Shown: positions 23,138 to 50,097 of the stretch, one piece after another | Position numbering within the stretch: the first letter of the stretch is position 1 | How the letters are laid out: each line of letters begins with the position of its first letter | DNA from: Bacteroidota bacterium | Lineage (GTDB): Bacteria; Bacteroidota; Bacteroidia; Bacteroidales; FEN-979 | Reading direction: 5' to 3' | NCBI GenBank assembly: GCA_026391835.1 | Contig: JAPLDF010000068.1 | Location: 313,661-377,660, forward strand | Length of the DNA stretch: 64,000 bases | Made by a program: the position numbers and the translations under genes | The notes under the pieces: generated by a model | Databases searched by the model: none | Told to the model about the DNA's origin: nothing | Seen by the model: the letters and a program-made list of their open reading frames with translations, nothing else

Positions 23138-23773
23138 TTCACCGCGAAGACGCAAAGACGCTAAATTAACAATTTCCTGTATTACCTTTTCGGGTTAAAA
23201 CGATTAAGCATTAATCCTGCACTTTCTCAGAAAAGTTTTTCACCGCTAAGACGCTAAGACGTTAAGGTTTATATGATTGAAATTGTGCTATTTGCGTCTT
23301 TGTGATTAACAGTTATGTTTAAGTTTCCGGGGCGGGTTAAATGGTCTTTTAAAACATATTTAAATGGAAAAACAGAAAATGGAATATGTTGCAAAACAAA
23401 TTGTTGATGCTGGTTACAGGGTACATAAAGAACTTGGCCCCGGATTATTGGAATCGGTTTATCTCTATTGTTTTATGGAAGAGTTGAAATTAAGTGGGAT
23501 CAGAACTGAACAGGAGGTAGTGTTACCGCTTTTTTATCGAGGTAACAAATTGAATAAGGAGTTTCGTTTTGATGTCCTTGTTGAACAGGAGATCATTGTT
23601 GAAATCAAAGCTGTTGAAATTCTTCTGCCTGTGCATCGTGCACAACTGATTTCCTATTTAAAACTATCGAATAAAAAAATGGGATTTCTGATCAATTTTA
23701 AAGTGCCGGCTTTAAAGGATGGAATCCATCGTTTTGTCAACAATTATTAGCGTCTTTGCGCCTTTGCGGTAAA
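23138..23773 (+). other. hairpin-bounded cassette carrying the GxxExxY gene
   Basis: The left arm is ttcaccgcgaagacgcaaagacgctaa (23138-23164). The reverse complement of the right arm (23747-23773) is tttaccgcaaaggcgcaaagacgctaa, a 24/27 match. The gene's stop codon lies inside the right arm. Confidence 0.7.
23364..23750 (+). CDS. GxxExxY protein (PD-(D/E)XK nuclease fold family)
   Basis: 128 aa. It has the motif GPGLLESVY (GxxExxY) and the D..E.K-like FRFDVLVEQEIIVEIK. The size is typical of the family. Confidence 0.85.
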   Translation: MEKQKMEYVAKQIVDAGYRVHKELGPGLLESVYLYCFMEELKLSGIRTEQEVVLPLFYRGNKLNKEFRFDVLVEQEIIVEIKAVEILLPVHRAQLISYLKLSNKKMGFLINFKVPALKDGIHRFVNNY

Positions 23774-23797
23774 AAAGGCATTAAATTTTAATCTATG

Positions 23798-24082: not shown

Positions 24083-24179
24083 AATCCATTCCCTATTCCA
24101 AACCAACAAAATAAGGAGCACCTCCCCTCCCTTGTTTTCTGCCAGCCAAAAATACAAGTCTAACCTTTACGTTATTAAT

Positions 24180-26926: not shown

Positions 26927-28093
26927 ATGCGATTGTTTTTTATTTTACCCCGGGTTCCATATCCAACTGAAAAAGGCGACAAACTAAGGGCTTTTCATCA
27001 GATCAAGCAGCTTTCAAAACATCATGAGATCATCCTTTGCGCCCTGAACGACGGAGATTTGCATGAAAATGCAATAGCGGTGCTGAAAAAGTATGTCAAA
27101 GCCATCCATATCATTCCAATTTCGAAGATTTCGATCGCTTTCAACCTGGTAAAGACCCTGTTTTCAAACAAGCCGCTCCAGGTGGGTTATTTTTACAATG
27201 CATCTTCCGCAGCTAAAATTCATTCGCTTATCGAGGAGTATAAGCCGGATCACATCTTCTGCCAGCTGATCCGTGTTGCCGAATATGTAAAGGACATCCC
27301 GATTCCGAAAACACTCGATTACCAGGATGTTTTTTCAAAGGGGGTTGAAAGAAGGCTTGCCACTGCACCTTTTTACCTGAAACCGTTCCTGAAGATCGAA
27401 TACAACCGGCTGCTCCGTTACGAACATGATGCTTTTGAAGCATTCGATCACAAAATGATCATCTCAGCCCCCGACCGCGACATGATCCCGCATCCCGGGC
27501 GGGACCAGATCGTAGTTGTTGCAAATGGCGTGGATACTGATTTTTTCAGTCCGCAGGAGGCCGAAAAGAAGTACGACCTCGTCTTCACCGGCAATATGGG
27601 TTACCCGCCGAACATCAAAAGTGCTGAATTCCTGGTCAACGAAATCCTGCCGGTCGTATTGGCTCAAAAACCCGACCTGAACCTGCTGATTGCAGGAGCC
27701 AGTCCGAACTTACGGGTGATGGCACTAAAATCTTCACAGGTCAGTGTAAGCGGCTGGGTGCCGGATATGCGCGCGTGTTACGCCAGTGCCCGGATATTCA
27801 TTGCCCCCATGCAGATCGGCACCGGTTTGCAAAATAAGATCCTTGAAGCAATGGCCATGCGAATCCCCTGCATCACCTCGCCTCTTGCATTCAAAGCGCT
27901 GAATGCCAGGGAAGGTGTGGATATCCTGGTTGCCTCAACACCGAAAGAGTACGCCGCACACATCATGATGCTCCTGAACAATCCCGGAAAAGCCGGTGAA
28001 ATCGCCCAAAACGGGTACGATTTCGTCCACCGGAATTTCAACTGGGAAACTGAAACCGAAAAGATCAACATGCTGATCGAAGGGGGAAAGTGA
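26927..28093 (+). CDS. glycosyltransferase (GT4-like; the ORF track starts at 26909)
   Basis: MRLFFILPRVPYPTEKGDKLRAFHQIKQL... and the C-terminal FIAPMQIGTGLQNKILEAMAMRIPCITS are typical of group-1 glycosyltransferases. Confidence 0.8.
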   Translation: MRLFFILPRVPYPTEKGDKLRAFHQIKQLSKHHEIILCALNDGDLHENAIAVLKKYVKAIHIIPISKISIAFNLVKTLFSNKPLQVGYFYNASSAAKIHSLIEEYKPDHIFCQLIRVAEYVKDIPIPKTLDYQDVFSKGVERRLATAPFYLKPFLKIEYNRLLRYEHDAFEAFDHKMIISAPDRDMIPHPGRDQIVVVANGVDTDFFSPQEAEKKYDLVFTGNMGYPPNIKSAEFLVNEILPVVLAQKPDLNLLIAGASPNLRVMALKSSQVSVSGWVPDMRACYASARIFIAPMQIGTGLQNKILEAMAMRIPCITSPLAFKALNAREGVDILVASTPKEYAAHIMMLLNNPGKAGEIAQNGYDFVHRNFNWETETEKINMLIEGGK

Positions 28094-28100
28094 ATGGAAT

Positions 28101-28203
28101 AATGCAGGCAATTCAAACAATGCAAACAATGCAATCAATGCAGACAATGCAGGCAATGCAGGCAAATTTTTTTCATTTTGATTTTGATTTTTGATTTTTG
28201 AAA
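28101..28203 (+). repeat. (AATGCANNC)x7 nonamer array followed by an (ATTTTTG)-type T-rich array, ending 9 nt before the ettA ATG
   Basis: Nonamer units: aatgcaggc aattcaaac aatgcaaac aatgcaatc aatgcagac aatgcaggc aatgcaggc. They are followed by tttttttcattttgattttgatttttgatttttg. Confidence 0.9.
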
Positions 28204-32366: not shown

Positions 32367-32553
32367 GCCACGATGAATTGTCATTAAACCACGTTGAAAC
32401 TGCGTACAAGCAGGTAGAAACCACGATGAATCGTCATAAAACCACGTTGAAACTGCGTACAAGCAGGTAGAAACCACGATGAATCGTCATAAAACCACGT
32501 TGAAACTGCGTACAAGCAGGTAGAAACCACGTTGAAACTGCGTATAAGCAGGG
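32367..32553. repeat. 53-bp tandem repeat, 3.5 copies
   Basis: The unit is ccacgatgaatcgtcataaaaccacgttgaaactgcgtacaagcaggtagaaa. Copies 2 and 3 are identical, copy 1 has 3 differences, and the last copy is partial. Confidence 0.95.
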
Positions 32554-34604: not shown

Positions 34605-34680
34605 CAAGGAAAAATGTAAAACGAACCTGGGCAACTGCCATCCTCAGCGCCCGCAGCATGATTATCGGGGCAGAGTAAGG

Positions 34681-34761
34681 AATGCAGGCAATGCAGACAA
34701 TGCAAATAATGCAGGGAATGCATAAAGAGAACCCCAGGTAATTTTTAATTTTTAATTTTTA
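34681..34761 (+). repeat. (AATGCANNN)x5 nonamer array followed by (ATTTTTA)x3, ending 10 nt before the hutH-like ATG
   Basis: The sequence is aatgcaggc aatgcagac aatgcaaat aatgcaggg aatgcataa ... attttta attttta attttta. The composite layout matches 28101-28203. Confidence 0.9.
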
Positions 34762-37381: not shown

Positions 37382-37816
37382 ATGACCGAAGAGACCGAAG
37401 AGACCAAACAAAGCGAACCCGGCAATACCAAACCGGTGAAACCCCGCCCGGTATTGCTTACCGCTTTGTGCCTCTTTTCTTTTGTATATTTTGGCCTGCT
37501 GGCCCTGCTGTTCCTCCCGGGAATTTTTTATTCCGGGGCCATTACGGGAGTGATTGACAAATACCTGCCAACGGGTTTATATTCAAATACCGAAATCCGG
37601 ATGGTCTTTGCAGCAGGGTTCCTGCTGCATGCCCTTGGGCTGGCGGGTTCCATTGTGATGTGGAACCTTAGGAAAACAGGGTATTACCTGCTCGCTGGTG
37701 CCTGTATCATAGTGGCATCCATGCAGACTTTCCGGCCCGACATTTCAGTGACATCCACCGCAGTGTATATTATTTTCATCCTGCTTTTTGGCGTCTTCTT
37801 CAAACGGTTGCACTGA
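37382..37816 (+). CDS. hypothetical 4-TM membrane protein (paralog of the previous gene)
   Basis: 144 aa with ..RPVLLTALCLFSFVYFG.. and ..MWNLRKTGYYLL... Confidence 0.55.
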   Translation: MTEETEETKQSEPGNTKPVKPRPVLLTALCLFSFVYFGLLALLFLPGIFYSGAITGVIDKYLPTGLYSNTEIRMVFAAGFLLHALGLAGSIVMWNLRKTGYYLLAGACIIVASMQTFRPDISVTSTAVYIIFILLFGVFFKRLH

Positions 37817-37833
37817 GTTATTGTCTGTTCAAA

Positions 37834-38055
37834 TTTCCCAGCCAAAATAAAATGCTGAAAGTATGATTACCTTTTCCCGTTTTTCCGATTAAGCAATAAT
37901 TAAGGACAGCAATATCCCTTATGATGAATTAATCTGGTGTCAACCGCTCTGTGCTTCTCCGGGTGTGATCTGTGTCTCTCTGTGCAACAAATAATTACAC
38001 GGAGGGTCACAGAGATCTGTGAAGAACCACAGAGAGAAAAAACGAAATAATTCCC
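37834..38055 (+). repeat. composite element copy A: conserved ~100-nt module plus CACAGAG-word hairpin plus short tail
   Basis: tttcccagccaaaataaaatgctgaaagtatgattaccttttcccgtttttccgattaagcaataattaaggacagcaatatcccttatgat... is followed by the hairpin 37947-38036. It is near-identical to copy B over the first ~130 nt. Confidence 0.9.
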
Positions 38056-38187
38056 TTATCTTTGTACAGGTAAAGTTTAAGTTGCTCAGCTTTATGCATG
38101 CGCCCACCCTTAAAAAATATTTCTGGTTTCAATCTTCGTGAGGTGTCCGTATAGTTTTTTAGTACAGGACAAGGCAGGATTTATTAT

Positions 38188-38245
38188 AGCTTATACAAAG
38201 CTTATACAACAGCTTATACAAAGCATATGCAATAGCTTATACAAC
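38188..38245. repeat. 11-12-nt tandem words (agcttatacaa[a/c]) x5
   Basis: agcttatacaa agcttatacaac agcttatacaa agcatatgcaat agcttatacaac. Confidence 0.85.
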
Positions 38246-38363
38246 GACAGATCAACGTTGCATAATTTCAGGTACATTTATTGGATTATCAGGTAATAAT
38301 GGCGAAGAATGCAGCTCCTCGCCAACCCTCGCCCAGGATGAGGACCCCCTCCCCGATCCTCCC

Positions 38364-38590
38364 CATGGAGGCTACTCTTTATACAAATCTTTCCCAGCCA
38401 AAATAAAATGCTGAAAGTATGATTACCTTTTCCCGTTTTTTCGATTAAGCATTAATTAAGGACAGCAATATCCCTTATGATGAATTAATCTGGTGTCAAC
38501 CGCTCTGTGCTTCTCCGTGTGAGCTCGGTGTCTCTGTGTAACAAATAATTACACGGAGGTTCACGGAGATCCGGAGAGAACCACAGAGAG
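38364..38590 (+). repeat. composite element copy B (with the 5' extension catggaggctactctttata shared with copy C)
   Basis: The module is 38390-38502 and the hairpin is 38503-38590. The hairpin arms differ from copy A at many positions while the module is almost identical. Confidence 0.9.
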
Positions 38591-38606
38591 GTCATTATAA
38601 ATCAGT

Positions 38607-38972
38607 TCACGGGTGTGATGACATAATGATGGTGGTGATCATCATGCTCCGGTTCGATGTAGGTTTTCCATCGGCTATGGAGGTGACTATACGGTATCCT
38701 TTGTCGCTGAGCATGTTTAGCGTCCGGGCAAGTGTCCTGCCGTTCCTTACAAGGTATTCATCGTTGTATTTAAAGGGTTCAAGGGGAATTACTTCAAAGG
38801 TGCTGTCGGGGTAGTTTACGATGATCTTTGAAGATGTGACAGAAAAGTTTTCATACACCCTCAAGACCAAATACCTGCCATTATCCGTTCCGGGCTGAGC
38901 CACAAATCCCGTCAATATTCCCAAAACCATTAAAACCGACAGGGGCGCCACAAGCAAGATCCATTTTTTCAT
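38607..38972 (-). CDS. hypothetical exported protein
   Basis: 121 aa with an N-terminal hydrophobic signal or anchor. I recognise no motif. Confidence 0.5.
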   Translation of the reverse strand: MKKWILLVAPLSVLMVLGILTGFVAQPGTDNGRYLVLRVYENFSVTSSKIIVNYPDSTFEVIPLEPFKYNDEYLVRNGRTLARTLNMLSDKGYRIVTSIADGKPTSNRSMMITTIIMSSHP

Positions 38973-40092: not shown

Positions 40093-40140
40093 TTTTTTTC
40101 CTGGCTGCCTGTTGCATTGTTAAAGCACCACTGAATTAAA

Positions 40141-40188
40141 TCTCATCCTTGCCGTTCCGAAACGGTGCGAGGGTGAGATTTTTTTTTA
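40141..40188 (+). terminator. rho-independent terminator
   Basis: The stem is tctcatccttgccgtt / aacggtgcgagggtgaga, followed by TTTTTTTTT. Confidence 0.75.
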
Positions 40189-40406
40189 TAAAAGCCCCCC
40201 CGGCGAAGGTTAAAACTTTGTTAATAAAATATTAATTAATTGTTAAATTCTTGTTGGTTTCGATTAAAGTATTATGTAAAATTGCATTGCAGTAGTGTTA
40301 TCACTAAAACAAGTCGGTCACATCAGGATGATAAATTGCCATCTGAACCATGAAATTTAATTTTATCACGGAGTATTCACACATTTACTAACCAAAATCA
40401 AACTGT

Positions 40407-43400
40407 ATGAGAAAATTTACGATTTTCCTTGCCCTGCTTTTTTTTGTAGGAGTGGAGGGATTATTAGCCCAGACCAGGGTCATCACCGGTACGGTAACCT
40501 CTTCGGAGGATAAGCAGCCAATTCCTGGTGTGACTGTCGTGGTGAAAGGCACCACCATTGGTGTCAATACCAACCAGGACGGAAAATTTGTTTTTTCCGT
40601 GCCAACCAAGTATGACCTCCTTGTTTTCTCCTATGTAGGGATGAAAATGAAGGAGGTGAACATCGGCACCCAGTCGATTCTCGACATTGTAATGGATCCC
40701 GATGTCCTTAACATGGATGAAATCGTAGTCACTGCCATCGGCGTTCCGCGTGAAACCAAGGCACTGAGCTATTCTGTACAGAATGTCGGATCCGACGAGA
40801 TCACCAAGTCTGCCCGTACCGATGTCATCAATTCCATGCAGGGAAAAGTTTCAGACGTTCAAATCATCAATTCTGCCGGTGTTGCAGGAGCCTCCTCGTA
40901 TATTCAGATACGTGGCGCCCAGTCAATTACCGGGAACAACCAGCCGCTCTTTGTCCTTGATGGCGTCCCCATCAGCAACAGCGGCGGTTTAAACACGGTT
41001 GACGGTGTTGCCATGTCAAACCGTGCCATTGACATCAACCCTGATGATATCGAATCGATCAGCGTGCTGAAAGGCGGGGCTGCAACCGCTCTTTACGGTC
41101 TGCAGGCTGCATCAGGCGCCGTGATCATCACCTCCAAAAAAGGCAAATCAACCCCCGGCCGTAAAATCTCGGTTAATTTCAATACCTACATCCAGTTCGA
41201 CCAGGTAAGCCAGCTTCCCGAACTCCAGACCAAGTACGGCCAGGGAACAAAAGGCAAATGGGCTTCAGGTGGAAGAACCTCCTGGGGACCAAGACTCGAT
41301 ACATGTTCCTATAGCCTTGCCGGTTGGGATACGTATGCATGGAAAGAATATGATGTTGACGGGAAAATCGTTTCAAAAAACGATCCCAACGCAACCGGGG
41401 CATCAATCCGCACCTATGATCCCTACGATTTCTTTGAAACAGGATTGACAACCAACAACTCACTGTCAATCGCCGGAGGAGGAGAAGTATCAACCTTCTA
41501 CTTCAGTTTTTCCGATAACCAGTCAAAAGGTGTCATTCCGAATAATAAATTCAGGAGGAATACCTTCAAAATTTCCGGTGATACCAAACTCGGCGACAAA
41601 TTTAAAATTGCCGGTTCTGCCAACTATATGATCACTGCAGGTGACCGCATCCAGCAAGGTTCCAACACCTCCGGTGTTATGCTTGGCCTCCTGAGAACAC
41701 CCCCGACATTCGACAACAGCGCCGGCTACATCACCACCACCGGAGCACAGAGAAGTTATCGCCACGGAACTGGTTATGACAATCCATACTGGACTGCCAA
41801 CATGAACAAATACAATGACCAGGTGAACCGTTTGATCGGCAACGTACAGCTGGATTACTTCACCACGAAATGGCTGAGTTTCACCTATCGCGTTGGTATT
41901 GACTGGTGGGGACGTAAAGCAAAGGATATCCTTGCAGTTGGTTCAAATGCACAGGCATCCGGCTGGGTTCATGAAAGCATGGAAAACAACAAGGACTTCA
42001 ACTCCGACCTGATGATGACCATTGACAAGGACTTTGGAAAGGACATCAATCTGAAGGTCATCCTGGGTCACAACATGCAACAGCACTATTACTATTTGCT
42101 GAATGGCAATGCCAATGACGTTGTCATCCCTGAATATTACAACCTGAACAACTCCACGGCCATCTCCTCGACGGAACAGACCAATAAAATCCGCCGTGCA
42201 GGGCTTTACGGAGATGTTGAAGTATCCTGGAAGAATATGTTATACCTGAGTGTCACCGGGCGTAATGACTGGTCAACCACTTTACCGCAGGGCAAGAATT
42301 CGTTTTTCTATCCTTCGGTTGGATTGGGCTGGATTTTCACACAATTACCGGGCCTCAAGGACAACAAGGTTCTTCCTTACGGAAAGGTACGCGTTTCCTA
42401 TGCAGTTGTTGCAAAAGATGCACCCGCCTATGTAACTTCAAACTATTTCCTCCAGCCTTTCCTTACCGATGGCTGGCTGAACCCTGCCGGTATTATCTTC
42501 CCGTGGCCGGGAAACATCGGGTACACGGCAAGTGATATCCTTGGAAATCCCGACTTAAAACCTGAAAAAACAAATACATTTGAAGTTGGCACCGACCTCA
42601 AATTCATCAACAACAGGATCGGATTCTCCTATACCTACTTCAACAACAAAGGCAAAGATCTCATCCTGCAGGTTCCGATCGCAGCTTCTTCGGGATATTT
42701 GTACCAGTATATGAATGCTGCTTCGATGACAACTTACGGACATGAAATTACCCTTGACATCGTTCCGATCAAGTCAAAGAACTGGGAATGGGATATTACC
42801 GCCAACTGGTCACTGATCAGGAATGAGGTTTTGGAACTTGCTCCCGGGCTCAACAGCCTCTTCCTCAACGGATTTACCAATTCAGAGGTTCGCGCCACTG
42901 TTGGCCAGCCTTACCGCACCTTCTGGGGACGTGACTGGAAACGCAATTCAGCCGGACAGTTGCTGCTTACCGACGACGGATACCCGCAAATGAACCCTGA
43001 CATGGTTGCCCTTGGAAATATTGACCCTGACTGGACTGCCGGTATCGGATCAAACCTCCGCTGGAGAGACCTCAGCCTCTATGTGCTCTTCGATATTAAA
43101 GTCGGTGGAAAAATGTGGAACGGAACCCGCGGAGCCCTCGACTATTTTGGAACCTCGGAAGGAACTGCCAACAGGGATGTGCCTTATTTATATGAAGGAA
43201 TTATTGAATCGACAGGTCTTGCAAACACAAAGACCGTCCTTCAGAATGAAGCATGGATGGCCGGTGACGGCAGCGGTTTCAACGGCCCGAATGTCGATTA
43301 CCTCGAAGATGCCGGATGGGTGCGCTTACGCACAGTGACCATCTCCTACTCTTTCACGAAGATGCTGAAGAAATCCTTTATCAAGGGACTTGATGTTTAT

Positions 43401-43550
43401 GCAACAGGAACAAACCTGTGGCTCAGCACCAAGTATACCGGCATCGATCCTGAAACAAACCTCACCGGTAGCGACAACGCCCAGGGTATCGACTATTTCA
43501 ACATGCCCGGTACCAGGAGCTATACTGTTGGTCTGACACTGGCATTTTAA
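40407..43550 (+). CDS. SusC/RagA family TonB-linked outer membrane protein
   Basis: 1047 aa. It has a CarboxypepD_reg N-domain (VITGTVTSSEDKQPIPGVTVVVKGTTIG), a plug, and a barrel ending ...SYTVGLTLAF. A SusD-like gene follows it. Confidence 0.9.
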   Translation: MRKFTIFLALLFFVGVEGLLAQTRVITGTVTSSEDKQPIPGVTVVVKGTTIGVNTNQDGKFVFSVPTKYDLLVFSYVGMKMKEVNIGTQSILDIVMDPDVLNMDEIVVTAIGVPRETKALSYSVQNVGSDEITKSARTDVINSMQGKVSDVQIINSAGVAGASSYIQIRGAQSITGNNQPLFVLDGVPISNSGGLNTVDGVAMSNRAIDINPDDIESISVLKGGAATALYGLQAASGAVIITSKKGKSTPGRKISVNFNTYIQFDQVSQLPELQTKYGQGTKGKWASGGRTSWGPRLDTCSYSLAGWDTYAWKEYDVDGKIVSKNDPNATGASIRTYDPYDFFETGLTTNNSLSIAGGGEVSTFYFSFSDNQSKGVIPNNKFRRNTFKISGDTKLGDKFKIAGSANYMITAGDRIQQGSNTSGVMLGLLRTPPTFDNSAGYITTTGAQRSYRHGTGYDNPYWTANMNKYNDQVNRLIGNVQLDYFTTKWLSFTYRVGIDWWGRKAKDILAVGSNAQASGWVHESMENNKDFNSDLMMTIDKDFGKDINLKVILGHNMQQHYYYLLNGNANDVVIPEYYNLNNSTAISSTEQTNKIRRAGLYGDVEVSWKNMLYLSVTGRNDWSTTLPQGKNSFFYPSVGLGWIFTQLPGLKDNKVLPYGKVRVSYAVVAKDAPAYVTSNYFLQPFLTDGWLNPAGIIFPWPGNIGYTASDILGNPDLKPEKTNTFEVGTDLKFINNRIGFSYTYFNNKGKDLILQVPIAASSGYLYQYMNAASMTTYGHEITLDIVPIKSKNWEWDITANWSLIRNEVLELAPGLNSLFLNGFTNSEVRATVGQPYRTFWGRDWKRNSAGQLLLTDDGYPQMNPDMVALGNIDPDWTAGIGSNLRWRDLSLYVLFDIKVGGKMWNGTRGALDYFGTSEGTANRDVPYLYEGIIESTGLANTKTVLQNEAWMAGDGSGFNGPNVDYLEDAGWVRLRTVTISYSFTKMLKKSFIKGLDVYATGTNLWLSTKYTGIDPETNLTGSDNAQGIDYFNMPGTRSYTVGLTLAF

Positions 43551-43586
43551 TAACCCTTCATTTGATTCATTTAAAAAGAAAAAAAT

Positions 43587-45002
43587 ATGAAAAAAATAAA
43601 TATCAAAGTAATCGGGGTGTTATTCTTAATTGCTTTGACCCTCGGCTCCTGTAAAAAGTGGATCGATACCGATCTCAACATAAACCCGGATGCTCCCACA
43701 GATGCCCCGATGGGGTCAATTCTGACAACTGCTGAAGTGAATATGGGTTTTGTTACTGTTGGAGGTAACGATTATGTCCGCATCACTTCAATCTGGCTGC
43801 AGTATGTTCATGGCATCGCCCGCCAGTCGGAAAGTCAGACACAATATATTTTGTCTGATGGCGATATGAGCGGCCAGTGGAATGACAACTATGGCGTATC
43901 CATGGAGGACATCCATACACTGCTTCAAAAAGCAACCGCTGCAAACCATTACTACTACAAGGGTATCGCAGAGGTTCTCCTTGCCAATGCGCTCGGCGTT
44001 ACCACCGACGTGTGGAATCAGATCCCATACTCCGAAGCATTCCAGGGGGCAGCCAACCTTCAACCGAAATTTGATTCCCAGGAAGCTGTATACACCGCTA
44101 TCTTCAAGCTCTTAAACCAGGCCATTCAGGATTTTTCCGTTGAAGGTTTCAGCGGAGAAGTAACCGGTGATATTATTTACGGCGGCGACGTTACCCTGTG
44201 GATGAAAGCAGCCTATGCATTCAAGGCAAGATACGCGCTTCATACGATGAAACTCAACGCCTCCATCATGCCTTCTCCGTTTGATACGGCACTTGCTGCT
44301 TTGCCGCACGCCTTTTCCGATAACGCCGAAGATCTCCAGATCAACTTCCAGGAGCAATACGACAAATCAAACCCGCTGTACCTCTTCATGGATAACCGTG
44401 GTGATATCGTAATGGACTCTGTATTCATCGCTATTTTGACAGGCCACCAGGATCCCAGGATCGCAGTATTTGCAACCAGCCTGGGTGAAAATCTGTATGT
44501 TGGTGCCGGCTGGAACTATGCAGGAGAAGATTGCTCCCTGCCAGGTACCGCAGTTGCAAACCCCGATTCACCTGTGCCCCTGATCACCAATGTTGAATGT
44601 CACTTTATCAAGGCTGAATGCAGCTTTAAAAAAGGTGATGAAGCAGCAGCCAAGGTTTCTCTTTTTGAAGGTCTGAAAGCTTCCCTGGACAAATTCGGCG
44701 TTTACAGTGATCTCTATTTCCAGGCTTACCAGGCAAACCTGGCAGCTGTTTCAGGAGCTCCCTTATACAAAGAGATCATGATGCAGAAATACATTGCCCT
44801 CTTCTACCAGGCTGAATCCTATAACGACTGGAGAAGAACCGACAATGCGATCGGCCTTGTTGCCAACCCGAATGCCGGCCGCTCCGAAATTCCAAGGAGA
44901 TTTCCTTATGCCAACACCGAAAAAACCGCCAATGCGAATACCCCGGTTGTTTCCGATAACTGGCAGAGAGTATGGTGGGATGCTGGTACACCAAGCAAAT
45001 AA
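43587..45002 (+). CDS. SusD/RagB family nutrient-binding lipoprotein
   Basis: 471 aa. It has the lipoprotein signal LTLGSC|KK, is helical and TPR-like, and lies immediately downstream of susC. Confidence 0.8.
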   Translation: MKKINIKVIGVLFLIALTLGSCKKWIDTDLNINPDAPTDAPMGSILTTAEVNMGFVTVGGNDYVRITSIWLQYVHGIARQSESQTQYILSDGDMSGQWNDNYGVSMEDIHTLLQKATAANHYYYKGIAEVLLANALGVTTDVWNQIPYSEAFQGAANLQPKFDSQEAVYTAIFKLLNQAIQDFSVEGFSGEVTGDIIYGGDVTLWMKAAYAFKARYALHTMKLNASIMPSPFDTALAALPHAFSDNAEDLQINFQEQYDKSNPLYLFMDNRGDIVMDSVFIAILTGHQDPRIAVFATSLGENLYVGAGWNYAGEDCSLPGTAVANPDSPVPLITNVECHFIKAECSFKKGDEAAAKVSLFEGLKASLDKFGVYSDLYFQAYQANLAAVSGAPLYKEIMMQKYIALFYQAESYNDWRRTDNAIGLVANPNAGRSEIPRRFPYANTEKTANANTPVVSDNWQRVWWDAGTPSK

Positions 45003-45018
45003 CACCAATTAATTCATT

Positions 45019-45056
45019 AAAAAAAGCTGCCCCGTTTTAAAGGGCAGCTTTTTTTT
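45019..45056. terminator. bidirectional terminator between convergent genes
   Basis: aaaaaa agctgccc cgttttaaa gggcagct tttttttt. Confidence 0.8.
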
Positions 45057-46176
45057 ATTCCCTGATCCAGCACCTTCGCCTGATATTGACACGGCCGTCA
45101 TAATTTTTCCAGATTGAGATCGCCTTAAAGTTTTCCTCGAGTTGCGGATGTGTTCTGGCAATTTTGATTCCGGCAGCAATGTATGCCTTGTTCAGTTCAT
45201 GGTAAATAAGCGCCAATACTCCTTTTCCCTGGTAATCGGGCCTTACGCCGATCAGGTACATATGGATCGTGTCATTTTTCCGCATCGCACGCAGCAGGTG
45301 GATGAACCCGAACGGAAACAGGTGCCCGTTTGCCTTCTGCAGGGCCAGTGAAAGGTCCGGCATCGTTATCCCAAACCCGGCAACATCATCGTTTGAATCC
45401 AGGATCATCGAAACAAATTCGGGCCTGATAAATCCGAAATATTGTTTGGTATAATCATCCATCTGTTCCCTGGTAAGCGGTGTAAAGCCATATAAATCAT
45501 GAAAGGCCTCATTGTACATGGCGAACATCTTCGCAGCATAGGGCCTGATATCGGAAGCCTTCTGCGGCTTTAACAAATGCAGGTCGTACTTTTGCATCAC
45601 GATCCTTGTCATCCGTTCAACCTTTGCCGGAATTTCACCAGGGATCATGATCTCAAACTGAACCCAGTCGGTTGCCTTCCGGAACCCAAGCTGTTGAATA
45701 TGATCATTGTAATAGGGGAAATTATAGATCGCCGAAAGGCTGGATATCTGGTCAAAGCCTTCAACCAGCATGCCTTCCGGGTCCATATCGGTAAATCCCA
45801 GCGGCCCGTGAATTCCTGTCACTCCCTTGCTCCTGCCCCAGGCATTGACTGTATCAATCAAAATACGGGAAACCTGCGTGTCGTCAATGAAGTCAACCCA
45901 GCCAAACCTGACAAGCCGGGTGTTCCAGCGTTCAAACTCCTTATGGTTGATGATCCCTGCAATCCGGCCAACCGGCACACCTTCACGGTAAGCCAGCCAG
46001 TATTCGGCTTCACAATAAGAAAAGGCTGGATTTTTATCTTTGCGTAGGGTTTTTATCTCGTCAAACTTCAGTGGTGGGACCCAGAACTTATTTCCTTTAT
46101 ATAATTGAAAAGGAAAGTCAACGAATTTTTTAAGGTCGTTGTGTGTTGAGACCTTTTTTACCAGGATTTCACCCAT
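45055..46176 (-). CDS. GNAT-like N-acyltransferase, paralog of 51123..52268 (candidate bacterial ceramide-synthase-type enzyme)
   Basis: 373 aa, alignable end to end with the 381-aa protein of the Spt operon (LYKGNKFW, NPAF.(Y/F)CEAEYWL, LVRFGW(V/I)DF(I/V)DD, IHGPLGF(T/S)DMD, GVRPDY, RRCWI). Roughly half or more of the positions are identical by eye. Confidence 0.5.
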   Translation of the reverse strand: MGEILVKKVSTHNDLKKFVDFPFQLYKGNKFWVPPLKFDEIKTLRKDKNPAFSYCEAEYWLAYREGVPVGRIAGIINHKEFERWNTRLVRFGWVDFIDDTQVSRILIDTVNAWGRSKGVTGIHGPLGFTDMDPEGMLVEGFDQISSLSAIYNFPYYNDHIQQLGFRKATDWVQFEIMIPGEIPAKVERMTRIVMQKYDLHLLKPQKASDIRPYAAKMFAMYNEAFHDLYGFTPLTREQMDDYTKQYFGFIRPEFVSMILDSNDDVAGFGITMPDLSLALQKANGHLFPFGFIHLLRAMRKNDTIHMYLIGVRPDYQGKGVLALIYHELNKAYIAAGIKIARTHPQLEENFKAISIWKNYDGRVNIRRRCWIRE

Positions 46177-46572
46177 TTTGCTTCCAATTGCCCCATATTA
46201 TCCGGGCGATGCCGCCCGGCTTCGGTTTATGCGAAGCTAATATAAAGATTTTCCTGACAACGTTAATAAATTCACATATATTTGTCATCTAGACGGGACG
46301 TATTCCAATTGTTGGGTTCAATTGATATTATAATGAACTTCCCAATGCATAACATATTTCTCTCCGTGGTTGGTTTGTTGGTCATCCCTGCAGCCGTTCC
46401 CCTTTTATTTGCAAACGGCTGCATAAGCACAGTGAAACTCCACCACCAGCTTCCAGAAACCATGAAATTAACCCCAATGATCACCAACCCTGAAACCGGG
46501 CAGTACTGATACAACGTATAAAATTAATTTTCAATTTGATGTATAAAAACAATTAATCTTAAAAACCACGTT

Positions 46573-47604
46573 ATGAAAAAACTAAAATCACTGAAAACTG
46601 CCTTGCTGAATATCCCGGTAACATCGGTGCTGGCCATTTTACTTGTTTTTGGAGTTATTTTCGGTTGTAAAAAAGATGAAACAACCTCAACCCACAAAGC
46701 TTATAAAAACATGGATGATGCCACTACCACTAATATTATTGCCAGTATTCCGAGAATCGAATTGTCAAAATTGAAGAGTACCCAAATTTCCCTGTATCTT
46801 TCGGTAACTGACCAGAATGGCAAACCTTTTTCCGAATTCAACAAATACAACTTTGTTATAAAGCAGGTTTGTGTTGGGCAACAGGATACCACGGTTGTTG
46901 CTTCGCTATCCTTTTCGAAATTAAACCAGACAGGCAGTAATATCGCAACGCCGCTGGTCCTGGATTATTCGGGAAGTATGGATAGCTATATTGGCGACCT
47001 GGAGCAGGCCGCAGGCAATTTCATTTCAATCAAAAACAACAGCGATCAGATTGAACTGGTAAAATTCAGCACCGAAATTGAGAATGTTCAGCCCTTTTCA
47101 AATGACACGGTAACATTGCTCCAGGCATTGCACAACTGGTGGGCCAATGCCGGAAATACAACGGCATTTTATGATGCCATGATGATGGGTGTGAATGACG
47201 CTGAAACGTTTAACCAGGCCCATTCAACATTCCTGCCAGCAGTAATCGGATTTACTGACGGACTGGATAATGCTTCAAGTATCTATTATTCAGAGTTGAT
47301 CAACCAGGCCTTGGCCAGGCAAATCCCACTGTATACAATTGGATTTGGAGATGCTGATGAAGCGGTGTTGAATACAATTGCAACTCAAACAGGCGGGAGG
47401 TATTATTATACGCCCGATATCACAACGTTGAAAACTCTTTTTTCCCTGATAAGCGGACAATTGAAAAACCTTTACATGGTTTCGTGGGTGTATGATGATC
47501 AATCCTGTTCGGAGGTGCTGATCACAGTTGAAGCAAAGTACACCTGTGCCAACGGTTCATACGCATCGAAGACCCAAAAGATCTTCCATCCGCTTGTTAA
47601 ATGA
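46573..47604 (+). CDS. von Willebrand factor A domain lipoprotein
   Basis: 343 aa with the lipobox VIFGC|KK. It has a MIDAS-like LVLDYSGSMD plus TAFYDAM, GFTDGLDN and PLYTIGFGD. Confidence 0.8.
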   Translation: MKKLKSLKTALLNIPVTSVLAILLVFGVIFGCKKDETTSTHKAYKNMDDATTTNIIASIPRIELSKLKSTQISLYLSVTDQNGKPFSEFNKYNFVIKQVCVGQQDTTVVASLSFSKLNQTGSNIATPLVLDYSGSMDSYIGDLEQAAGNFISIKNNSDQIELVKFSTEIENVQPFSNDTVTLLQALHNWWANAGNTTAFYDAMMMGVNDAETFNQAHSTFLPAVIGFTDGLDNASSIYYSELINQALARQIPLYTIGFGDADEAVLNTIATQTGGRYYYTPDITTLKTLFSLISGQLKNLYMVSWVYDDQSCSEVLITVEAKYTCANGSYASKTQKIFHPLVK

Positions 47605-47706
47605 CAACCTGTCCGTTATCACAACAAAACCGGATGGTCAGTAAATGGCCTTTTTACAGTCATTCCACCAACAAATACATGTTCCATTAAAACCAAAATC
47701 AAAATC

Positions 47707-48252
47707 ATGAAAACGAAAACCGGATTGTTTCCAATGGTCATTTTCCTGGCAATTTGCCTGATTAATTTCTCATGTAAAAAAGACACCACTAGCAGCAGCT
47801 CTTCAAAAAACCAGATTACCTACAAGGGTACTGAATATGCGATGAATAAAGGTTATATGGTAGATTATTACGGTTCAATGCACACCATTGAACTGGATTT
47901 TTTCTCATCAGGAGTTACCGTGTATGCAAACGGTAACGTGATGGATTCACTCGGCGGTACCGGGAACGGGATGTATTTTGACCTGATCAATACCGACTCG
48001 ACGACACTGGCAACCGGAAATTACCCATACGACTCGGTTGGGAATTATCACCCGGGAACTTTTCACAGTGCCGGTTTTGCATTAAATTACAATTTCTCCC
48101 ATGGTGGCGGACAAATCATCACCGTATACGGAGGCACCGTATCCGTGAAAAAAACAGGAACGAACTACGAAATTTCTTATTCGGGCATGACATATGGCGG
48201 GGATCCCATTTCCCTGTATTACAAAGGTGCGCTGAATCACTATTCGTATTGA
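47707..48252 (+). CDS. hypothetical lipoprotein
   Basis: 181 aa with the lipobox INFSC|KKD. Confidence 0.55.
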   Translation: MKTKTGLFPMVIFLAICLINFSCKKDTTSSSSSKNQITYKGTEYAMNKGYMVDYYGSMHTIELDFFSSGVTVYANGNVMDSLGGTGNGMYFDLINTDSTTLATGNYPYDSVGNYHPGTFHSAGFALNYNFSHGGGQIITVYGGTVSVKKTGTNYEISYSGMTYGGDPISLYYKGALNHYSY

Positions 48253-48305
48253 TTTTCATATCTCAACCCAGCGTACAATGTGCTCTGGACCAGGTCCATT
48301 CCTAA

Positions 48306-48351
48306 AAGAGCGATGCCTCAAAACATTTGATTGTTTTGAGGCATCGCTCTT
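48306..48351. terminator. perfect 20-bp hairpin between convergent genes
   Basis: The stem is aagagcgatgcctcaaaaca tttgat tgttttgaggcatcgctctt. On the minus strand it is followed by TTTT. Confidence 0.7.
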
Positions 48352-48371
48352 AAAAATATTAATTTCAGAAC

Positions 48372-49178
48372 CTACTTGGATTTGGCTACTTCACCAAATC
48401 TGAAAATATAACCAACGGAGAATCCAAAATTCCGGTTACACAGTGGATAGTATGGCAATAAGTCATTGTTTGAAGCATAGTCATTATAATCGGTTTTCTG
48501 ACCGGCTGTGGGATTATCCACGCCAATGAATCCCCAGTTATACCTGAAATCCAACACAAGGTCGCCAGGTCCCAGACGCACACCCGGCTGTACACCAAAC
48601 GTAAGGCCTGCGTCGAGCCTCATGGCTTTGTATGCACCTCTCGGGCCACCTGTTTTGCCATTGTCATCGGAAGTCTCTCCCTGTCCAAACTCAACGGTGT
48701 ACTCCTTTTTCTGGGTCGTGTTTTCATAATATTTTTCATTTGCACCGAGCGCAACACCCACATAAGGTCCGATGATCCCATAAACACTGAACATGCCGAA
48801 TTTATAACCGCCTTTGAAGAGAATTGGCATGGTGAAATAGTTGTATGTTGCTGTAGATTTGTATTCAATTGTTTTTCCGGAGATATCGCTTGAATTTGTC
48901 ATCTTAGAACCTTTTTGTTCAAAATTAAACTCTATTTCCATACCAAACATTTTACTGAACATTGGGTTTAACACAAAGCTGACCTGCAACCCGATTTTAG
49001 GCGGATTTAAAACTGATGCATTAACGAAATCGTCACTCACAAGTTTTGACCAGTTCGAATATTTGGATGCTGTCATACCGAATCTCATCCCAAGACCAAA
49101 GCCCTGACTGAATGATTCAAATGAGGAGATCACCAACAGGGATACCAGAATTGCACATAGTAGATGTTTTGTTTTCAT
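48372..49178 (-). CDS. outer membrane beta-barrel protein (porin-family, OMP_b-brl type)
   Basis: 268 aa with a signal peptide, and typical Bacteroidota small-barrel features (GFGLGMRFG...; C-terminal ...GYIFRFG). Confidence 0.7.
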   Translation of the reverse strand: MKTKHLLCAILVSLLVISSFESFSQGFGLGMRFGMTASKYSNWSKLVSDDFVNASVLNPPKIGLQVSFVLNPMFSKMFGMEIEFNFEQKGSKMTNSSDISGKTIEYKSTATYNYFTMPILFKGGYKFGMFSVYGIIGPYVGVALGANEKYYENTTQKKEYTVEFGQGETSDDNGKTGGPRGAYKAMRLDAGLTFGVQPGVRLGPGDLVLDFRYNWGFIGVDNPTAGQKTDYNDYASNNDLLPYYPLCNRNFGFSVGYIFRFGEVAKSK

Positions 49179-49516
49179 CGTGTTGAGGTTTAGTTAATAA
49201 TTGGTTTATATTAAATTGCTCATGTGGAGTTTAATTCAATGGCTCATTTGGCTTTTCGCACCTCTTGATGCGACAAATATAAAAAAAAAACATGTTGTTG
49301 TTCAGTTTTTGTGAAAAGTTTATCAATTATTATCCGCGTAACATTTCTATCATATATTCCGGCTGGCTTATCGGGATATTTGCCTGCAATTTTAGCGTCA
49401 TGCCGGAACACATATGTTTTTGATGTTTTAAGTAAAAAGGTTTCACGCAAATATGATTATTACGGAAACGAATCCGGCAAAACAAAAGGAGCATACTCCT
49501 GTTCGGGCTCGTTTTT

Positions 49517-50035
49517 CATGGAGGCTACTCTTTATAGACGTCTTTCCCAGCCAAAATAAAATGCTGATAGTTTGACTACCTTTTCTTGTTTTTCCGATTA
49601 ATCAATAATGAAGGATGGCAAAATCCCTTATGATTCCTAGCTTCTGACGCTTCTCTATTTTTGTGCGATGCCATTTTTCAAGTAATTGAATTTGAATGAA
49701 GCAACCGAATTGCTGGCAATATTTGTTGCGAGCATTAAAACGGGTAAGCTGGATACCGGGGGAAAAGTACGAAGTATAAAGTACAAAGTACAAACGAAAG
49801 TGGGAAGTACAAAGTTCGAAAGACGAACACTGGCATGCTAATCCCAACCTTTGTACTTCGTCATTCGTACATCGTACTTCGCGGTGTACCGCACAAAATG
49901 TCAGAAGTCAGGAACTGGAGTTAACCCCTCTGTGCTTCTCCATGTGGGCTCTGTGGCTCTCAGTGTAACAAATAAATTACACGGAGGTTCACAGAAATCT
50001 GGAGAGAACCACAGAGAGAAAAACCGAAATGATGG
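49517..50035 (+). repeat. composite element copy C, split by a ~280-bp nested insertion
   Basis: The module is 49517-49634 (about 10 substitutions versus copy A). The insertion is 49635-49914. The hairpin and tail are 49915-50035 (ccctctgtgcttctcc...accacagagagaaaaaccgaaat). Confidence 0.9.
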
Positions 50036-50097
50036 AACTCAATAAGATTATGGGTCAGGGAGAGGCCAAATTGTAGACAAAAACAACCATCCGGAAA

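What the first reader, a model, noticed from the sequence alone, without database searches (positions are those of the whole stretch)
37834..38590. Two direct copies of a ~200-bp composite element (conserved 100-nt module plus rapidly diverging hairpin) bracket 350 bp of non-coding DNA
Copy A (37834-38036) and copy B (38390-38590) are almost identical over the first ~130 nt (tttcccagccaaaataaaatgctgaaagtatgattacc...cccttatgatgaattaatctggtgtcaaccgctctgtgcttctcc). They then differ at many positions within the CACAGAG/CACGGAG-word hairpin and re-converge on the loop (caacaaataatta versus taacaaataatta) and on the terminal accacagagag. A conserved module attached to a fast-evolving stem suggests two parts with different constraints. 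The segment between the copies carries its own 11-12-nt tandem words (38188-38245), a C-rich word run (ccccctccccgatcctcccc) and a TAtcTTTG box (38057-38064). A third, more diverged copy lies at 49517-50035. A partial module (boxes ATTACCTTTTC and CGATTAAGCA separated by exactly 9 nt) lies upstream of the GxxExxY gene at 23182-23211. I could not find convincing covariation for an RNA fold, or a clean reading frame, in the module. The two fixed boxes at fixed spacing look more like a protein-recognition site or a promoter-like element.
Basis: seen in the sequence. Interest (0 to 1): 0.7.

Follow-up and report, generated by a model that had tools for sequence, protein, structure and literature searches.

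The report
Truncated GxxExxY nuclease cassette fragments
The repeated 200-bp unit is the front end (terminal repeat, promoter-like two-box signal, leader and long hairpin) of a small, transposon-like cassette that normally carries a "GxxExxY" nuclease gene. The three copies in this window have lost that gene, so they are mobile-element debris, though from an element family that does not appear to have been described.

Summary
Copies A (37834-38051), B (38363-38588) and C (49516-50076) exist, and the two boxes recur at 23183-23207.

They are not a stand-alone RNA or a bare protein-binding site. In a related MAG the same module and hairpin continue straight into a 126-aa GxxExxY (PF13366, PD-(D/E)XK) gene. 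The whole ~0.7-kb unit is bounded by 18-nt inverted repeats and 8-9-bp target-site duplications. Internally deleted derivatives also occur there.

Copy C keeps a 14-codon remnant of the gene, of which the first six match. Copies A and B end at the hairpin. An orthologous locus in a relative has about 28 nt where the window has 790 nt, so A, the spacer and B together are inserted DNA.

The boxes TACCTTTT-N11/12-GATTAA lie upstream of, and co-oriented with, GxxExxY genes of two subfamilies and a few other genes. I infer a near-canonical Bacteroidota -7 promoter box followed by a 5' leader stem.

The "fast-evolving hairpin" holds only for the A/B pair, whose modules look homogenised.

The repeated word in the flanking inverted repeats tracks GxxExxY subfamily: CACAGAG, AAGACGC or CACAAAG.

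Promoter activity, the mobilising transposase and the hairpin's function remain inferred.

The parts
37809..37833 (+). Possible degenerate left terminal repeat of copy A (TGCACTGAGTTATTGTCTGTTCAAA). It overlaps the stop codon of ORF 37382-37816.
   Evidence: Weak similarity, read by eye from the alignment, to the B and C terminal repeat CCATGGAGGCTACTCTTTATACAAATC. Low confidence.
37834..37867 (+). Copy A, subterminal segment (TTTCCCAGCCAAAATAAAATGCTGAAAGTATGAT).
   Evidence: Identical to B over this segment and conserved in C and in the related-MAG elements (L001, L002, L004, L014, L015).
37868..37892 (+). Copy A, two-box element TACCTTTT-N11-GATTAA (promoter-like).
   Evidence: The same element lies upstream of, and co-oriented with, GxxExxY genes of two subfamilies and other genes.
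37893..37946 (+). Copy A, leader between the boxes and the hairpin.
   Evidence: Aligned in A, B, C and the related MAG. TTAATC at +36 is complementary to the GATTAA of box 2.
37947..38034 (+). Copy A, 88-nt hairpin built from CTCTGTG / CACAGAG words.
   Evidence: Folds at -42.5 kcal/mol, z -4.3. The consensus structure is shared by 10 homologous hairpins.
38035..38051 (+). Copy A, A-rich tail. It ends exactly where the GxxExxY ATG sits in intact elements.
   Evidence: Similarity to L015 and L014 stops at element position 253, which is the start codon.
38052..38362 (.). Unique spacer. It holds a canonical -7 box TATCTTTG (38057-38064), an 11-nt x5 array (38188-38244) and a C-rich run (38340-38362).
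   Evidence: No homologue in any locus or elsewhere in the window, and no GxxExxY remnant. C-rich CTCCCC-type sequence also flanks the elements in the related MAG.
38363..38389 (+). Copy B, left terminal inverted repeat (CCATGGAGGCTACTCTTTATACAAATC).
   Evidence: Matches the terminal repeats GCTACTCTTT(A/C)TACACAT of the related-MAG elements. An inverted copy, CTCCATGG preceded by TAG, abuts the stop codon of the P0021 cassette from the same sample series.
38390..38502 (+). Copy B, subterminal segment, two-box element (38424-38448) and leader.
38503..38588 (+). Copy B, 86-nt hairpin. The copy ends here, 18 nt from the stop of the convergent ORF 38607-38972.
   Evidence: Folds at -47.6 kcal/mol, z -5.6. 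Similarity to the full element ends at position 237.
49516..49634 (+). Copy C, left terminal repeat (49516-49542), subterminal segment, two-box element (49577-49601) and first part of the leader.
49635..49914 (.). About 280 nt of nested DNA inside copy C's leader. It has imperfect inverted ends (TTCCTAGCTTCTGAC... / ...GTCAGAAGTCAGGAA) and an internal GTACAAAG-word hairpin.
   Evidence: Absent from A and B, where 8 nt occupy its place. The internal inverted repeat was found by self-BLAST.
49915..50031 (+). Copy C, end of the leader, 89-nt hairpin (49928-50016) and A-rich tail.
   Evidence: Folds at -40 kcal/mol, z -3.3.
50032..50076 (+). Copy C, 14-codon remnant of the GxxExxY ORF (MELNKIMGQGEAKL*).
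   Evidence: The first six residues, MELNKI, are identical to the intact proteins of L015 and L001 (MELNKITGKIIG...).
23141..23771 (+). Intact cassette of a second GxxExxY subfamily. Order: 5' arm ACCGCGAAGACGCAAAGACGCTAA (23141-23165), two-box element (23183-23207), local AAGACGC-word hairpin (23239-23306), ORF 23364-23750, and a 3' arm TTAGCGTCTTTGCGCCTTTGCGGT (23747-23771) that contains the stop codon.
   Evidence: TIGR04256 E 4e-40 and PF13366 E 3e-38. The same plan is seen in homologues L037/L040, L043/L044 and L045-L048. Coordinates.

Best explanation
A, B and C are gene-less 5' fragments of a ~0.7-kb selfish cassette whose only gene encodes a 123-126-aa GxxExxY protein (PF13366/TIGR04256, a minimal PD-(D/E)XK nuclease of unknown function).

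Shown:
- The intact element has this order: left terminal inverted repeat, a 34-nt subterminal segment, the two-box element TACCTTTT-N11-GATTAA, a ~54-nt leader, an ~88-nt hairpin of CTCTGTG/CACAGAG words, a 14-17-nt A-rich stretch, the ATG of the GxxExxY ORF, and the right terminal inverted repeat.
- In a related MAG the unit carries 8-9-bp target-site duplications. Internally deleted, MITE-like derivatives also exist there. The element therefore spread by cut-and-paste or copy-in transposition.
- In the window, the whole block A + spacer + B is extra DNA relative to an orthologous empty site.

Inferred:
- The transposase acts in trans, because none is encoded in the element.
- A and B occupy the gap between two convergent genes. 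C lies at the edge of a 10-kb island.
- Box 1 (TAccTTTT) is a near-canonical Bacteroidota sigma-A -7 box. Transcription would start about 5 nt downstream of it.
- Box 2 (CCGATTAA) would form the 5' arm of a small stem at the start of the transcript.
- The long hairpin would be an RNA structure in the leader, acting as a stability, processing or insulation element just upstream of the A-rich initiation region.
- The near-identity of the A and B modules reflects recent gene conversion or partial duplication. It does not reflect different selective constraints.
For: 1. Continuity into the gene. In L001/L015 and L014 the module and hairpin run directly into ATG-MELNKITGKIIGCAIEVH..., which matches PF13366 at E 2e-43. 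The window copies match positions 16-268 of that element at about 84-86% and nothing beyond. Copy C retains MELNKI.

2. Terminal repeats and target-site duplications. Paired inverted GCTACTCTTT(A/C)TACACAT ends are flanked by direct repeats: TGCCCCCG in L015, CGACATAGG in L014, and CTTGAAGG in L012 (=L004) and L002. L002 and L004 are the same element with two internal deletions.

3. Empty site. In L049 and L050, orthologues of w34763 (92% aa), w36939, w37382, w38607 and w39127 are syntenic. The convergent stops are about 28 nt apart there, against 790 nt in the window. Neither locus gives a module or hairpin hit.

4. The same plan in other lineages. Boxes, then about 55-65 nt, then a word hairpin, an A-rich stretch and the ATG of GxxExxY are seen in L003, L030, L036 and (with a partial box) L033.

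5. Boxes as a promoter or leader.
- About 20 distinct instances are all co-oriented with a downstream gene. These include the 128-aa subfamily (25-31 nt before the ATG), a ComM-like gene (17 nt) and others.
- The genome uses TAnnTTTG, including TACCTTTG.
- With the -7 box at -12 to -5 and median 5'UTRs of 24-32 nt in Bacteroidetes (PMC9723704), the implied leaders are 33-45 nt.
- GATTAA has a full Watson-Crick or G-U complement within 45 nt downstream in 11 of 20 instances, against 2.6 expected; 0 of 2000 shuffles reach this.

6. Strand of the hairpin. In the 10-sequence alignment, one-sided changes are mainly G-U on the + strand (16 cells) rather than A-C (5 cells, my count from the table).

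7. Homogenisation of A and B.
Against: - No copy in the window has a right terminal repeat or a target-site duplication. Transposition is therefore shown only for the related MAG and inferred for this genome.
- Box 1 lacks the conserved final G of TAnnTTTG, and no -33 TTTG lies at the usual distance.
- There are no transcription data.
- Hairpin pairs are mostly invariant. Only 2 of 26 show a double change, so covariation neither proves nor disproves an RNA role.
- Cassettes of the 128-aa subfamily show no target-site duplication, so not all GxxExxY cassettes move this way.
- A, B and C are all truncated within about 30 nt of the ORF start. Random decay does not obviously predict that.
Confidence: 0.72

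Rival explanations
1. A REP/RAYT-like system. The word hairpins would be the substrates of the GxxExxY nuclease that they flank. The nuclease would recognise or cleave hairpin or cruciform DNA (or RNA) made of its cognate word and so propagate or maintain both itself and the repeats. A, B and C would be 'solo' repeat units left behind or generated by this activity.
For: Every GxxExxY gene examined lies between inverted word arrays, and the word tracks the protein subfamily:
- CACAGAG/CACGGAG for the 123-126-aa clade, including cultured Bacteroides finegoldii and Bernardetia at 55-59% identity.
- AAGACGC for the 128-aa clade in four unrelated contexts.
- CACAAAG/CACGAAG for a 54%-identical gene in L007.

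The protein is a confident minimal PD-(D/E)XK fold: pLDDT 94, with nearest solved folds Cas4 and lambda exonuclease.

The apical loop AACAAATAATTACAC is conserved across lineages.
Against: - In the window the CACAGAG hairpin occurs only next to the module. It is not dispersed in many copies as REPs are.
- The nuclease is not an HUH/Y1 enzyme.
- The 8-9-bp duplications point to a DDE-type transposase.
- Three word types, two of them similar, are a small sample.
- No biochemical data exist.
Confidence: 0.15
2. A stand-alone small RNA gene or cis-regulatory RNA. The boxes would drive a ~170-nt non-coding transcript (leader plus hairpin) with its own function. Its association with GxxExxY genes would be secondary.
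For: - Relic copies A and B retain intact boxes and stable hairpins.
- G-U changes outnumber A-C changes on the + strand.
- There is a box-2 stem signal.
Against: - No Rfam family matches, even at E up to 10.
- The module does not fold better than shuffles.
- No U-tract terminator follows the hairpin.
- In every intact case the unit runs into an ORF 14-17 nt after the hairpin.
Confidence: 0.08
3. Purely local duplication. A and B would be a tandem segmental duplication of ordinary intergenic DNA, with hairpins serving as terminators for the two convergent genes, and no mobile element involved.
For: - A and B are 556 bp apart in direct orientation between convergent genes.
- B's hairpin ends 18 nt from a stop codon.
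Against: - Homologous units occur at unrelated loci in other genomes, with terminal repeats and target-site duplications.
- A third copy lies 11 kb away.
- The relative has a 28-nt gap and no hairpin at this site.
- The hairpins lack U-tracts, whereas a canonical hairpin followed by a T-run is present in the relative, and another downstream of the w39127 stop in the window.
Confidence: 0.05

Closest known systems
Mobile insertion cassettes (MICs) and MITEs with a passenger gene, for example MIC231 of Bacillus cereus (recalled from the literature, not re-read here)
   Same: Both are small (<1 kb) units bounded by IS-like terminal inverted repeats and flanked by target-site duplications. Neither encodes a transposase. 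Both carry a non-transposition gene and occur in several copies, with shorter deletion derivatives.
   Different: - The cargo is a PD-(D/E)XK GxxExxY gene with its own conserved two-box signal and a long word hairpin.
- The mobilising IS is unknown.
- The window copies are one-ended fragments.
REP / RAYT (REPIN) systems
   Same: A single small nuclease gene is flanked by inverted, hairpin-forming repeats whose sequence type goes with the nuclease lineage.
   Different: - The nuclease fold is PD-(D/E)XK, not HUH/Y1.
- The repeats are built from tandem 7-8-nt words.
- Hundreds of dispersed copies have not been shown.
- Target-site duplications are present in one lineage.
Bacteroidota sigma-A promoters (-7 TAnnTTTG, -33 TTTG; PMC9723704)
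   Same: Box 1, TAccTTTT, matches 5 of the 6 specified bases. It is always co-oriented with a downstream gene, and the implied leader length is typical.
   Different: - The final G is T.
- There is no -33 box at the usual spacing.
- A second conserved box (CCGATTAA) lies 10-11 nt downstream, and canonical promoters do not have one.
ORF-bearing intervening sequences of 23S rRNA, in which the ORF sits in the loop of a long stem (recalled, not tested)
   Same: A small ORF is enclosed by a long-range inverted repeat. This is seen at 23141-23771 in the window and in L007, L018, L051 and L052.
   Different: - The cassettes are not inside rRNA.
- The protein family is different.
- RNase III processing has not been tested.

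Membership tests
Non-autonomous TIR transposon (MITE / mobile insertion cassette) | Terminal inverted repeats at both ends | tested here: inconclusive
   Met in the related MAG: paired GCTACTCTTTnTACACAT ends in L001/L015, L014, L002 and L004. In the window only left ends are present (B, C). No right end was found at up to 3 mismatches.
Non-autonomous TIR transposon (MITE / mobile insertion cassette) | Target-site duplication flanking the ends | tested here: inconclusive
   Met for L015 (TGCCCCCG), L014 (CGACATAGG), and L012 and L002 (CTTGAAGG). It cannot be assessed for the one-ended window copies.
Non-autonomous TIR transposon (MITE / mobile insertion cassette) | Presence or absence polymorphism (an empty site) | tested here: met
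   The orthologous locus L049/L050 has about 28 nt where the window has A + spacer + B. It gives no module or hairpin hit.
Non-autonomous TIR transposon (MITE / mobile insertion cassette) | No transposase inside; an autonomous partner with the same ends exists elsewhere | not testable with these tools
   The only ORF is GxxExxY. The resemblance of the ends to ISL3-type ends (GGCTCTT..., 8-bp duplication) is a recollection only.
REP/RAYT (REPIN) | The nuclease is an HUH/Y1 (IS200/IS605 TnpA-like) protein | tested here: not met
   The protein matches PF13366 (PD-(D/E)XK) and the model has a PD-(D/E)XK fold.
REP/RAYT (REPIN) | The gene is flanked by inverted copies of the repeat it is associated with | tested here: met
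   Inverted word arms or hairpins lie on both sides of GxxExxY genes in the window (23141-23771) and in L003, L007, L018, L030, L033, L036, L037, L043, L046, L051 and L052.
REP/RAYT (REPIN) | Many dispersed copies of the repeat in the same genome | tested here: inconclusive
   Only 3 CACAGAG hairpins occur in 64 kb, all next to the module. The whole genome was not available.
Any Rfam RNA family | Covariance-model match | tested here: not met
   No hit at gathering score in the window. In 37700-38700 only chance-level hits appear at E <= 10.
Bacteroidota sigma-A promoter | A -7 box TAnnTTTG about 5 nt upstream of a mapped start site, with a -33 TTTG | tested here: inconclusive
   TAccTTTT matches all but the last base. 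There is no -33 box at 19+/-2 nt. All instances are co-oriented with a gene. No start-site data are available.
Intrinsic terminator | GC-rich hairpin followed by a U-tract | tested here: not met
   On the + strand the hairpins are followed by A-rich sequence. On the - strand no T-run follows the hairpin.
Integron cassette / attC | Promoter-less ORF followed by an attC hairpin, next to an integrase and attI | tested here: not met
   The hairpin lies upstream of the ORF, together with a promoter-like box. No integrase was found among the neighbouring genes examined.

The most novel reading that the evidence does not exclude
GxxExxY (PF13366) proteins, a very large family of unknown function, may be hairpin-associated selfish nucleases. 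Each clade would travel with, and act on, inverted arrays of its own 7-8-nt word: CACAGAG, AAGACGC or CACAAAG. That would be a PD-(D/E)XK counterpart of the REP/RAYT relationship. It would account for many of the 'word hairpins' that litter Bacteroidota intergenic DNA. The two-box element would be the dedicated expression signal of these cassettes.
Probability: 0.18. Interest if true: 0.8.

Novelty: new member of a known kind. Interest (0 to 1): 0.5.

Why it matters
For this window, it explains about 1.3 kb of puzzling repeats as debris of a small mobile cassette. It also shows that the 790-bp gap between two convergent genes is inserted DNA.

More broadly, it gives a first structural description of how GxxExxY genes are organised. 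That family has thousands of members with more than 75% identity across phyla and is listed with unknown function (PMC3424549). The features described are:
- terminal repeats with target-site duplications in one lineage;
- a shared two-box expression signal;
- flanking inverted word arrays whose word follows the protein clade.

This turns "function unknown" into testable hypotheses: promoter mapping, nuclease assays on the cognate hairpins, and a search for the partner transposase.

Tried and rejected
- **Rfam.** Nothing at gathering score over the whole window, and nothing meaningful in the region at E up to 10.
- **Module as a structured RNA, either strand.** z-scores of -0.3 to +1.1.
- **Module as coding.** The + strand gives a 13-aa ORF from the ATG in the terminal repeat, and its B/C differences are non-synonymous. 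The - strand gives unrelated 19- and 25-aa ORFs after the CAT. Both were read from the sequence and rejected.
- **Module as the leader or promoter of - strand genes.** Rejected once intact elements showed the + strand ORF.
- **Sigma-70, sigma-54 and ECF readings of the boxes.** No GG/GC -24/-12 pair is present. Box 2 has CGA where ECF -10 regions have CGT. Left open, not adopted.
- **GxxExxY remnants in the A-B spacer or after B.** None found by tblastn or blastn.
- **Right terminal repeat in the window.** None found.
- **Orthology between the window's A/B pair and the related MAG's L004/L002 pair.** None.
- **Viral-contig scans.** The box pattern gave 0 hits. The terminal-repeat pattern gave 1 hit that lies inside coding sequence and is judged chance.
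- **BLAST of copy B against plasmid and phage collections.** No match.
- **PDB by sequence.** No hit. By fold, only generic PD-(D/E)XK neighbours at TM about 0.5.
- **PADLOC and PHROGs.** Only weak Cas4-like matches.
- **Literature.** Searches for GxxExxY, PDDEXK_3 and PF13366 found no description of the cassette.
Full report

Yes. The repeat search recovers A (37834-37983) and B (38390-38539) at 95% over 150 nt. It also recovers a third copy at 49543-49692 and the hairpin parts at 37934-38051, 38490-38605 and 49915-50033 (sequences; alignment).

A profile of the three copies finds nothing else in the 64-kb window except the partial copy at 23181-23216 (E 0.004). That copy lies upstream of ORF 23364-23750, which is a GxxExxY protein: TIGR04256 E 4e-40 and PF13366 E 3e-38.

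The hairpins fold far better than shuffles (z -3.3 to -5.6). The module does not, on either strand. Rfam has no match.

**2. What the unit belongs to**

A scan of one genome per species with the core TACCTTTTCNNGTTNNNNCGATTAANCA returned eight loci in Bacteroidales MAGs. A metagenome scan with the left part of the module returned seven more. By my reading of their sequences, these largely duplicate loci of one MAG, CAIMWF01.

In L001/L015 and L014 the module and the CACAGAG hairpin run, after 14-17 A-rich nt, into ATG-MELNKITGKIIGCAIEVH.... This is a 126-aa GxxExxY protein (PF13366 E 2e-43).

That ~0.7-kb unit is bounded by inverted GCTACTCTTT(A/C)TACACAT ends. It is flanked by direct repeats: TGCCCCCG in L015 and CGACATAGG in L014. 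Two further copies (L002 and L004, equal to L011-L013, L016 and L017) are the same element with two internal deletions. They keep both ends, have CTTGAAGG on each side, and sit in the loop of a C-rich palindrome.

The window copies match only element positions 16-268, at about 84-86%:
- A covers 36-253 and ends exactly at the position of the ATG.
- B covers 16-237 and ends at the hairpin.
- C covers 16-268 and keeps MELNKI of the ORF, then diverges to a stop (MELNKIMGQGEAKL*).

B and C carry the left end, extended in this lineage to (C/T)CATGGAGGCTACTCTTTATA. No right end is present in the window.

A GxxExxY gene (P0021) comes from the same sequencing project as contigs identical to the window (L009, L010, L032). 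It shares the identical hairpin apex TCTCTGTGTAACAAATAATTACAC. Its stop codon abuts ...TAGACTCCATGG, an inverted copy of the left end (16 of 21 positions; 48 of 2000 shuffles score as well). The 5' half of its hairpin is replaced by an IS110-family insertion.

**3. Empty site**

The 121-aa neighbour of copy B corresponds to NCBI protein NTW10_08570 of a Bacteroidetes MAG. A relative (L049/L050) has syntenic orthologues of w34763 (92% aa), w36939, w37382, w38607 and w39127. In that relative the two convergent stop codons are about 28 nt apart. In the window they are 790 nt apart. The relative gives no module or hairpin hit.

The finding's span, 37834-38590, is therefore almost exactly the extra DNA.

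In the same comparison, window 40093-50097 is absent from the relative. This 10-kb stretch holds a SusC/SusD pair, a GNAT-like paralogue, a VWA protein and other genes. Copy C sits at its right-hand junction.

**4. The two boxes**

Across loci there are about 20 distinct instances of TACCTTTT-N11/12-GATTAA.

They precede GxxExxY genes of the 123-126-aa clade, with the hairpin in between, in the window, L015, L014, L003, L030 and L036. L033 has a half box.

They also precede genes of a second clade of 128 aa, which is 42% identical to the first. In L037/L040, L043/L044 and L045-L048 the boxes lie 25-31 nt before the ATG. At the window's own gene (23364) they lie 157 nt before it.

They also precede other genes:
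- a ComM/Mg-chelatase-like gene, 17 nt before the ATG, which is itself followed by a third-clade GxxExxY gene (L007);
- a 116-aa ORF (L005);
- two predicted secreted or T9SS proteins (L008).

Every instance is co-oriented with the downstream gene.

Box 1 differs from the Bacteroidota -7 consensus TAnnTTTG only at the last base. The genome uses the consensus, including TACCTTTG. With the -7 box at -12 to -5, and median 5'UTRs of 24-32 nt in this phylum (PMC9723704), the implied leaders are 33-45 nt.

Box 2's GATTAA has a perfect Watson-Crick or G-U complement within 45 nt downstream in 11 of 20 instances, against 2.6 expected (0 of 2000 shuffles reach this). The loop lengths vary. This favours a transcribed stem over a dimeric operator.

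I therefore read the boxes as a promoter plus the first helix of the transcript. This is inference; there are no transcription data.

**5. The hairpin**

Ten homologous hairpins share one consensus structure. It consists of four 7-bp helices made of CTCTGTG/CACAGAG-type words, separated by small internal loops, with an A-rich apical loop (AACAAATAATTACAC) conserved across lineages.

Most pairs are invariant. Only 2 of 26 show double changes, so covariation is uninformative. One-sided changes are mainly G-U on the + strand (16 cells, against 5 A-C cells, my count). This is consistent with an RNA read in the direction of the gene.

No U-tract follows the hairpin on either strand, so it is not a canonical terminator. 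A canonical hairpin followed by a T-run is present in the relative, and another downstream of the w39127 stop in the window.

**6. The "fast-evolving stem"**

A-B identity is 98% in the module and 81% in the hairpin part (p = 8e-5). That compared segment includes B's ~15 nt of non-homologous tail; over the 74-nt hairpin core the identity is 85%. A-C is 85% vs 82% and B-C is 83% vs 77%, neither significant. Window versus related MAG is 85.8% vs 84.3%.

The contrast is thus specific to the neighbouring pair. It is best explained by homogenisation of a ~127-nt tract between A and B, not by different constraints on the two parts.

**7. Wider pattern**

All GxxExxY genes examined lie between inverted word arrays, and the word follows the protein clade:
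- CACAGAG/CACGGAG for the 123-126-aa clade, in MAGs and in cultured Bacteroides finegoldii and Bernardetia (55-59% identity);
- AAGACGC for the 128-aa clade, where the stop codon TAG lies inside the 3' arm;
- CACAAAG/CACGAAG for the L007 gene.

The 128-aa cassettes show no target-site duplication.

The protein models confidently (pLDDT 94) as a minimal PD-(D/E)XK nuclease. Only generic structural neighbours were found: Cas4 SSO0001, lambda exonuclease and DrdV. Matches to Cas4 profiles are weak.

The literature held here lists PF13366 only as "unknown, multiple transfers" (PMC3424549). No paper describing the cassette was found.

**8. Verdict**

The finding is real. It is explained as three truncated front ends of a small transposon-like GxxExxY cassette. 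By kind it is mobile-element debris, closest to a mobile insertion cassette or a MITE with a passenger gene. The element family itself, its two-box signal and the link between word and nuclease clade appear to be undescribed.

Still inferred:
- the promoter function of the boxes;
- the role of the hairpin;
- the transposase that moves the element;
- why all three window copies are truncated at the ORF start.

Noticed in passing
window 40093-50097 (compare L049 reverse-complement 5377-5471): A 10-kb block is absent from the otherwise syntenic relative, which has a 93-nt gap with a bidirectional terminator hairpin instead. The block holds a TonB-dependent receptor (40407-43550), a SusD-like protein (43587-45002), a GNAT-like ORF (45055-46176), a VWA protein (46573-47604), ORF 47707-48252 and an OMP beta-barrel protein (48372-49178). 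Copy C sits at its right-hand junction.
   Followed up: partly
window 49635-49914: About 280 nt are nested inside copy C's leader. The insert has imperfect inverted ends (TTCCTAGCTTCTGAC... / ...GTCAGAAGTCAGGAA) and an internal hairpin of GTACAAAG words. It looks like a second, unrelated hairpin or MITE-type insertion.
   Followed up: partly
window 23141-23771: The intact GxxExxY gene (23364-23750) lies in the loop of a 24-nt inverted repeat made of AAGACGC words, and its stop codon is inside the 3' arm. Homologues in four unrelated genomic contexts have the same layout (L037, L043, L046).
   Followed up: yes
window 23790-23845 and 23993-24097: Orphan arrays of CACTGAG/CACTTAG words. One is a 51+51-nt hairpin with 3 nt between the arms (repeat I2). 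They lie just downstream of the GxxExxY cassette and have no gene between them.
   Followed up: no
window 14187-14331; 28083-28169 and 34663-34731; 32368-32550; 8357-8465 vs 8735-8843: Other short-word tandem arrays: TTAAGTG in about 15 copies, the 9-mer AATGCAGNC at two sites 6.5 kb apart, a 53-nt-period CCACGATGAA... array, and a 109-nt direct repeat at 73% identity. This genome is unusually rich in word repeats.
   Followed up: no
L029 234-1238 and junction near 1275 (same sequencing project as the window): An IS110-family transposase element (PF01548 and PF02371) has replaced the 5' half of the CACAGAG hairpin upstream of an intact GxxExxY gene (P0021). This suggests these hairpins are insertion targets.
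   Followed up: partly
window 45923-45972 vs 52006-52055: An 80% identical 50-nt stretch links ORF 45055-46176 (inside the 10-kb block) with ORF 51123-52268. The island appears to carry a diverged paralogue of a neighbouring core gene.
   Followed up: no
L007 (reverse complement) 5000-7060: The two-box element lies 17 nt upstream of a ComM/Mg-chelatase-like gene. That gene is immediately followed by a third-clade GxxExxY gene enclosed by 40-nt CACAAAG/CTTTGTG arms. Some of the 'unrelated' genes that carry the box may therefore be co-transcribed with a GxxExxY gene.
   Followed up: partly
L004/L002 flanks (also L012 5700-6100); window 38340-38362: The element copies in the related MAG sit in the loops of C-rich (CTCCCC/GGGGAG) palindromes. 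Window copy B is likewise preceded by a CTCCCC-type run. This may reflect a target preference for hairpin loops.
   Followed up: no
window 38057-38064: A canonical -7 box, TATCTTTG, lies immediately after copy A, at the point where the GxxExxY ORF would begin. It faces the unique spacer, and no convincing ORF follows it.
   Followed up: no
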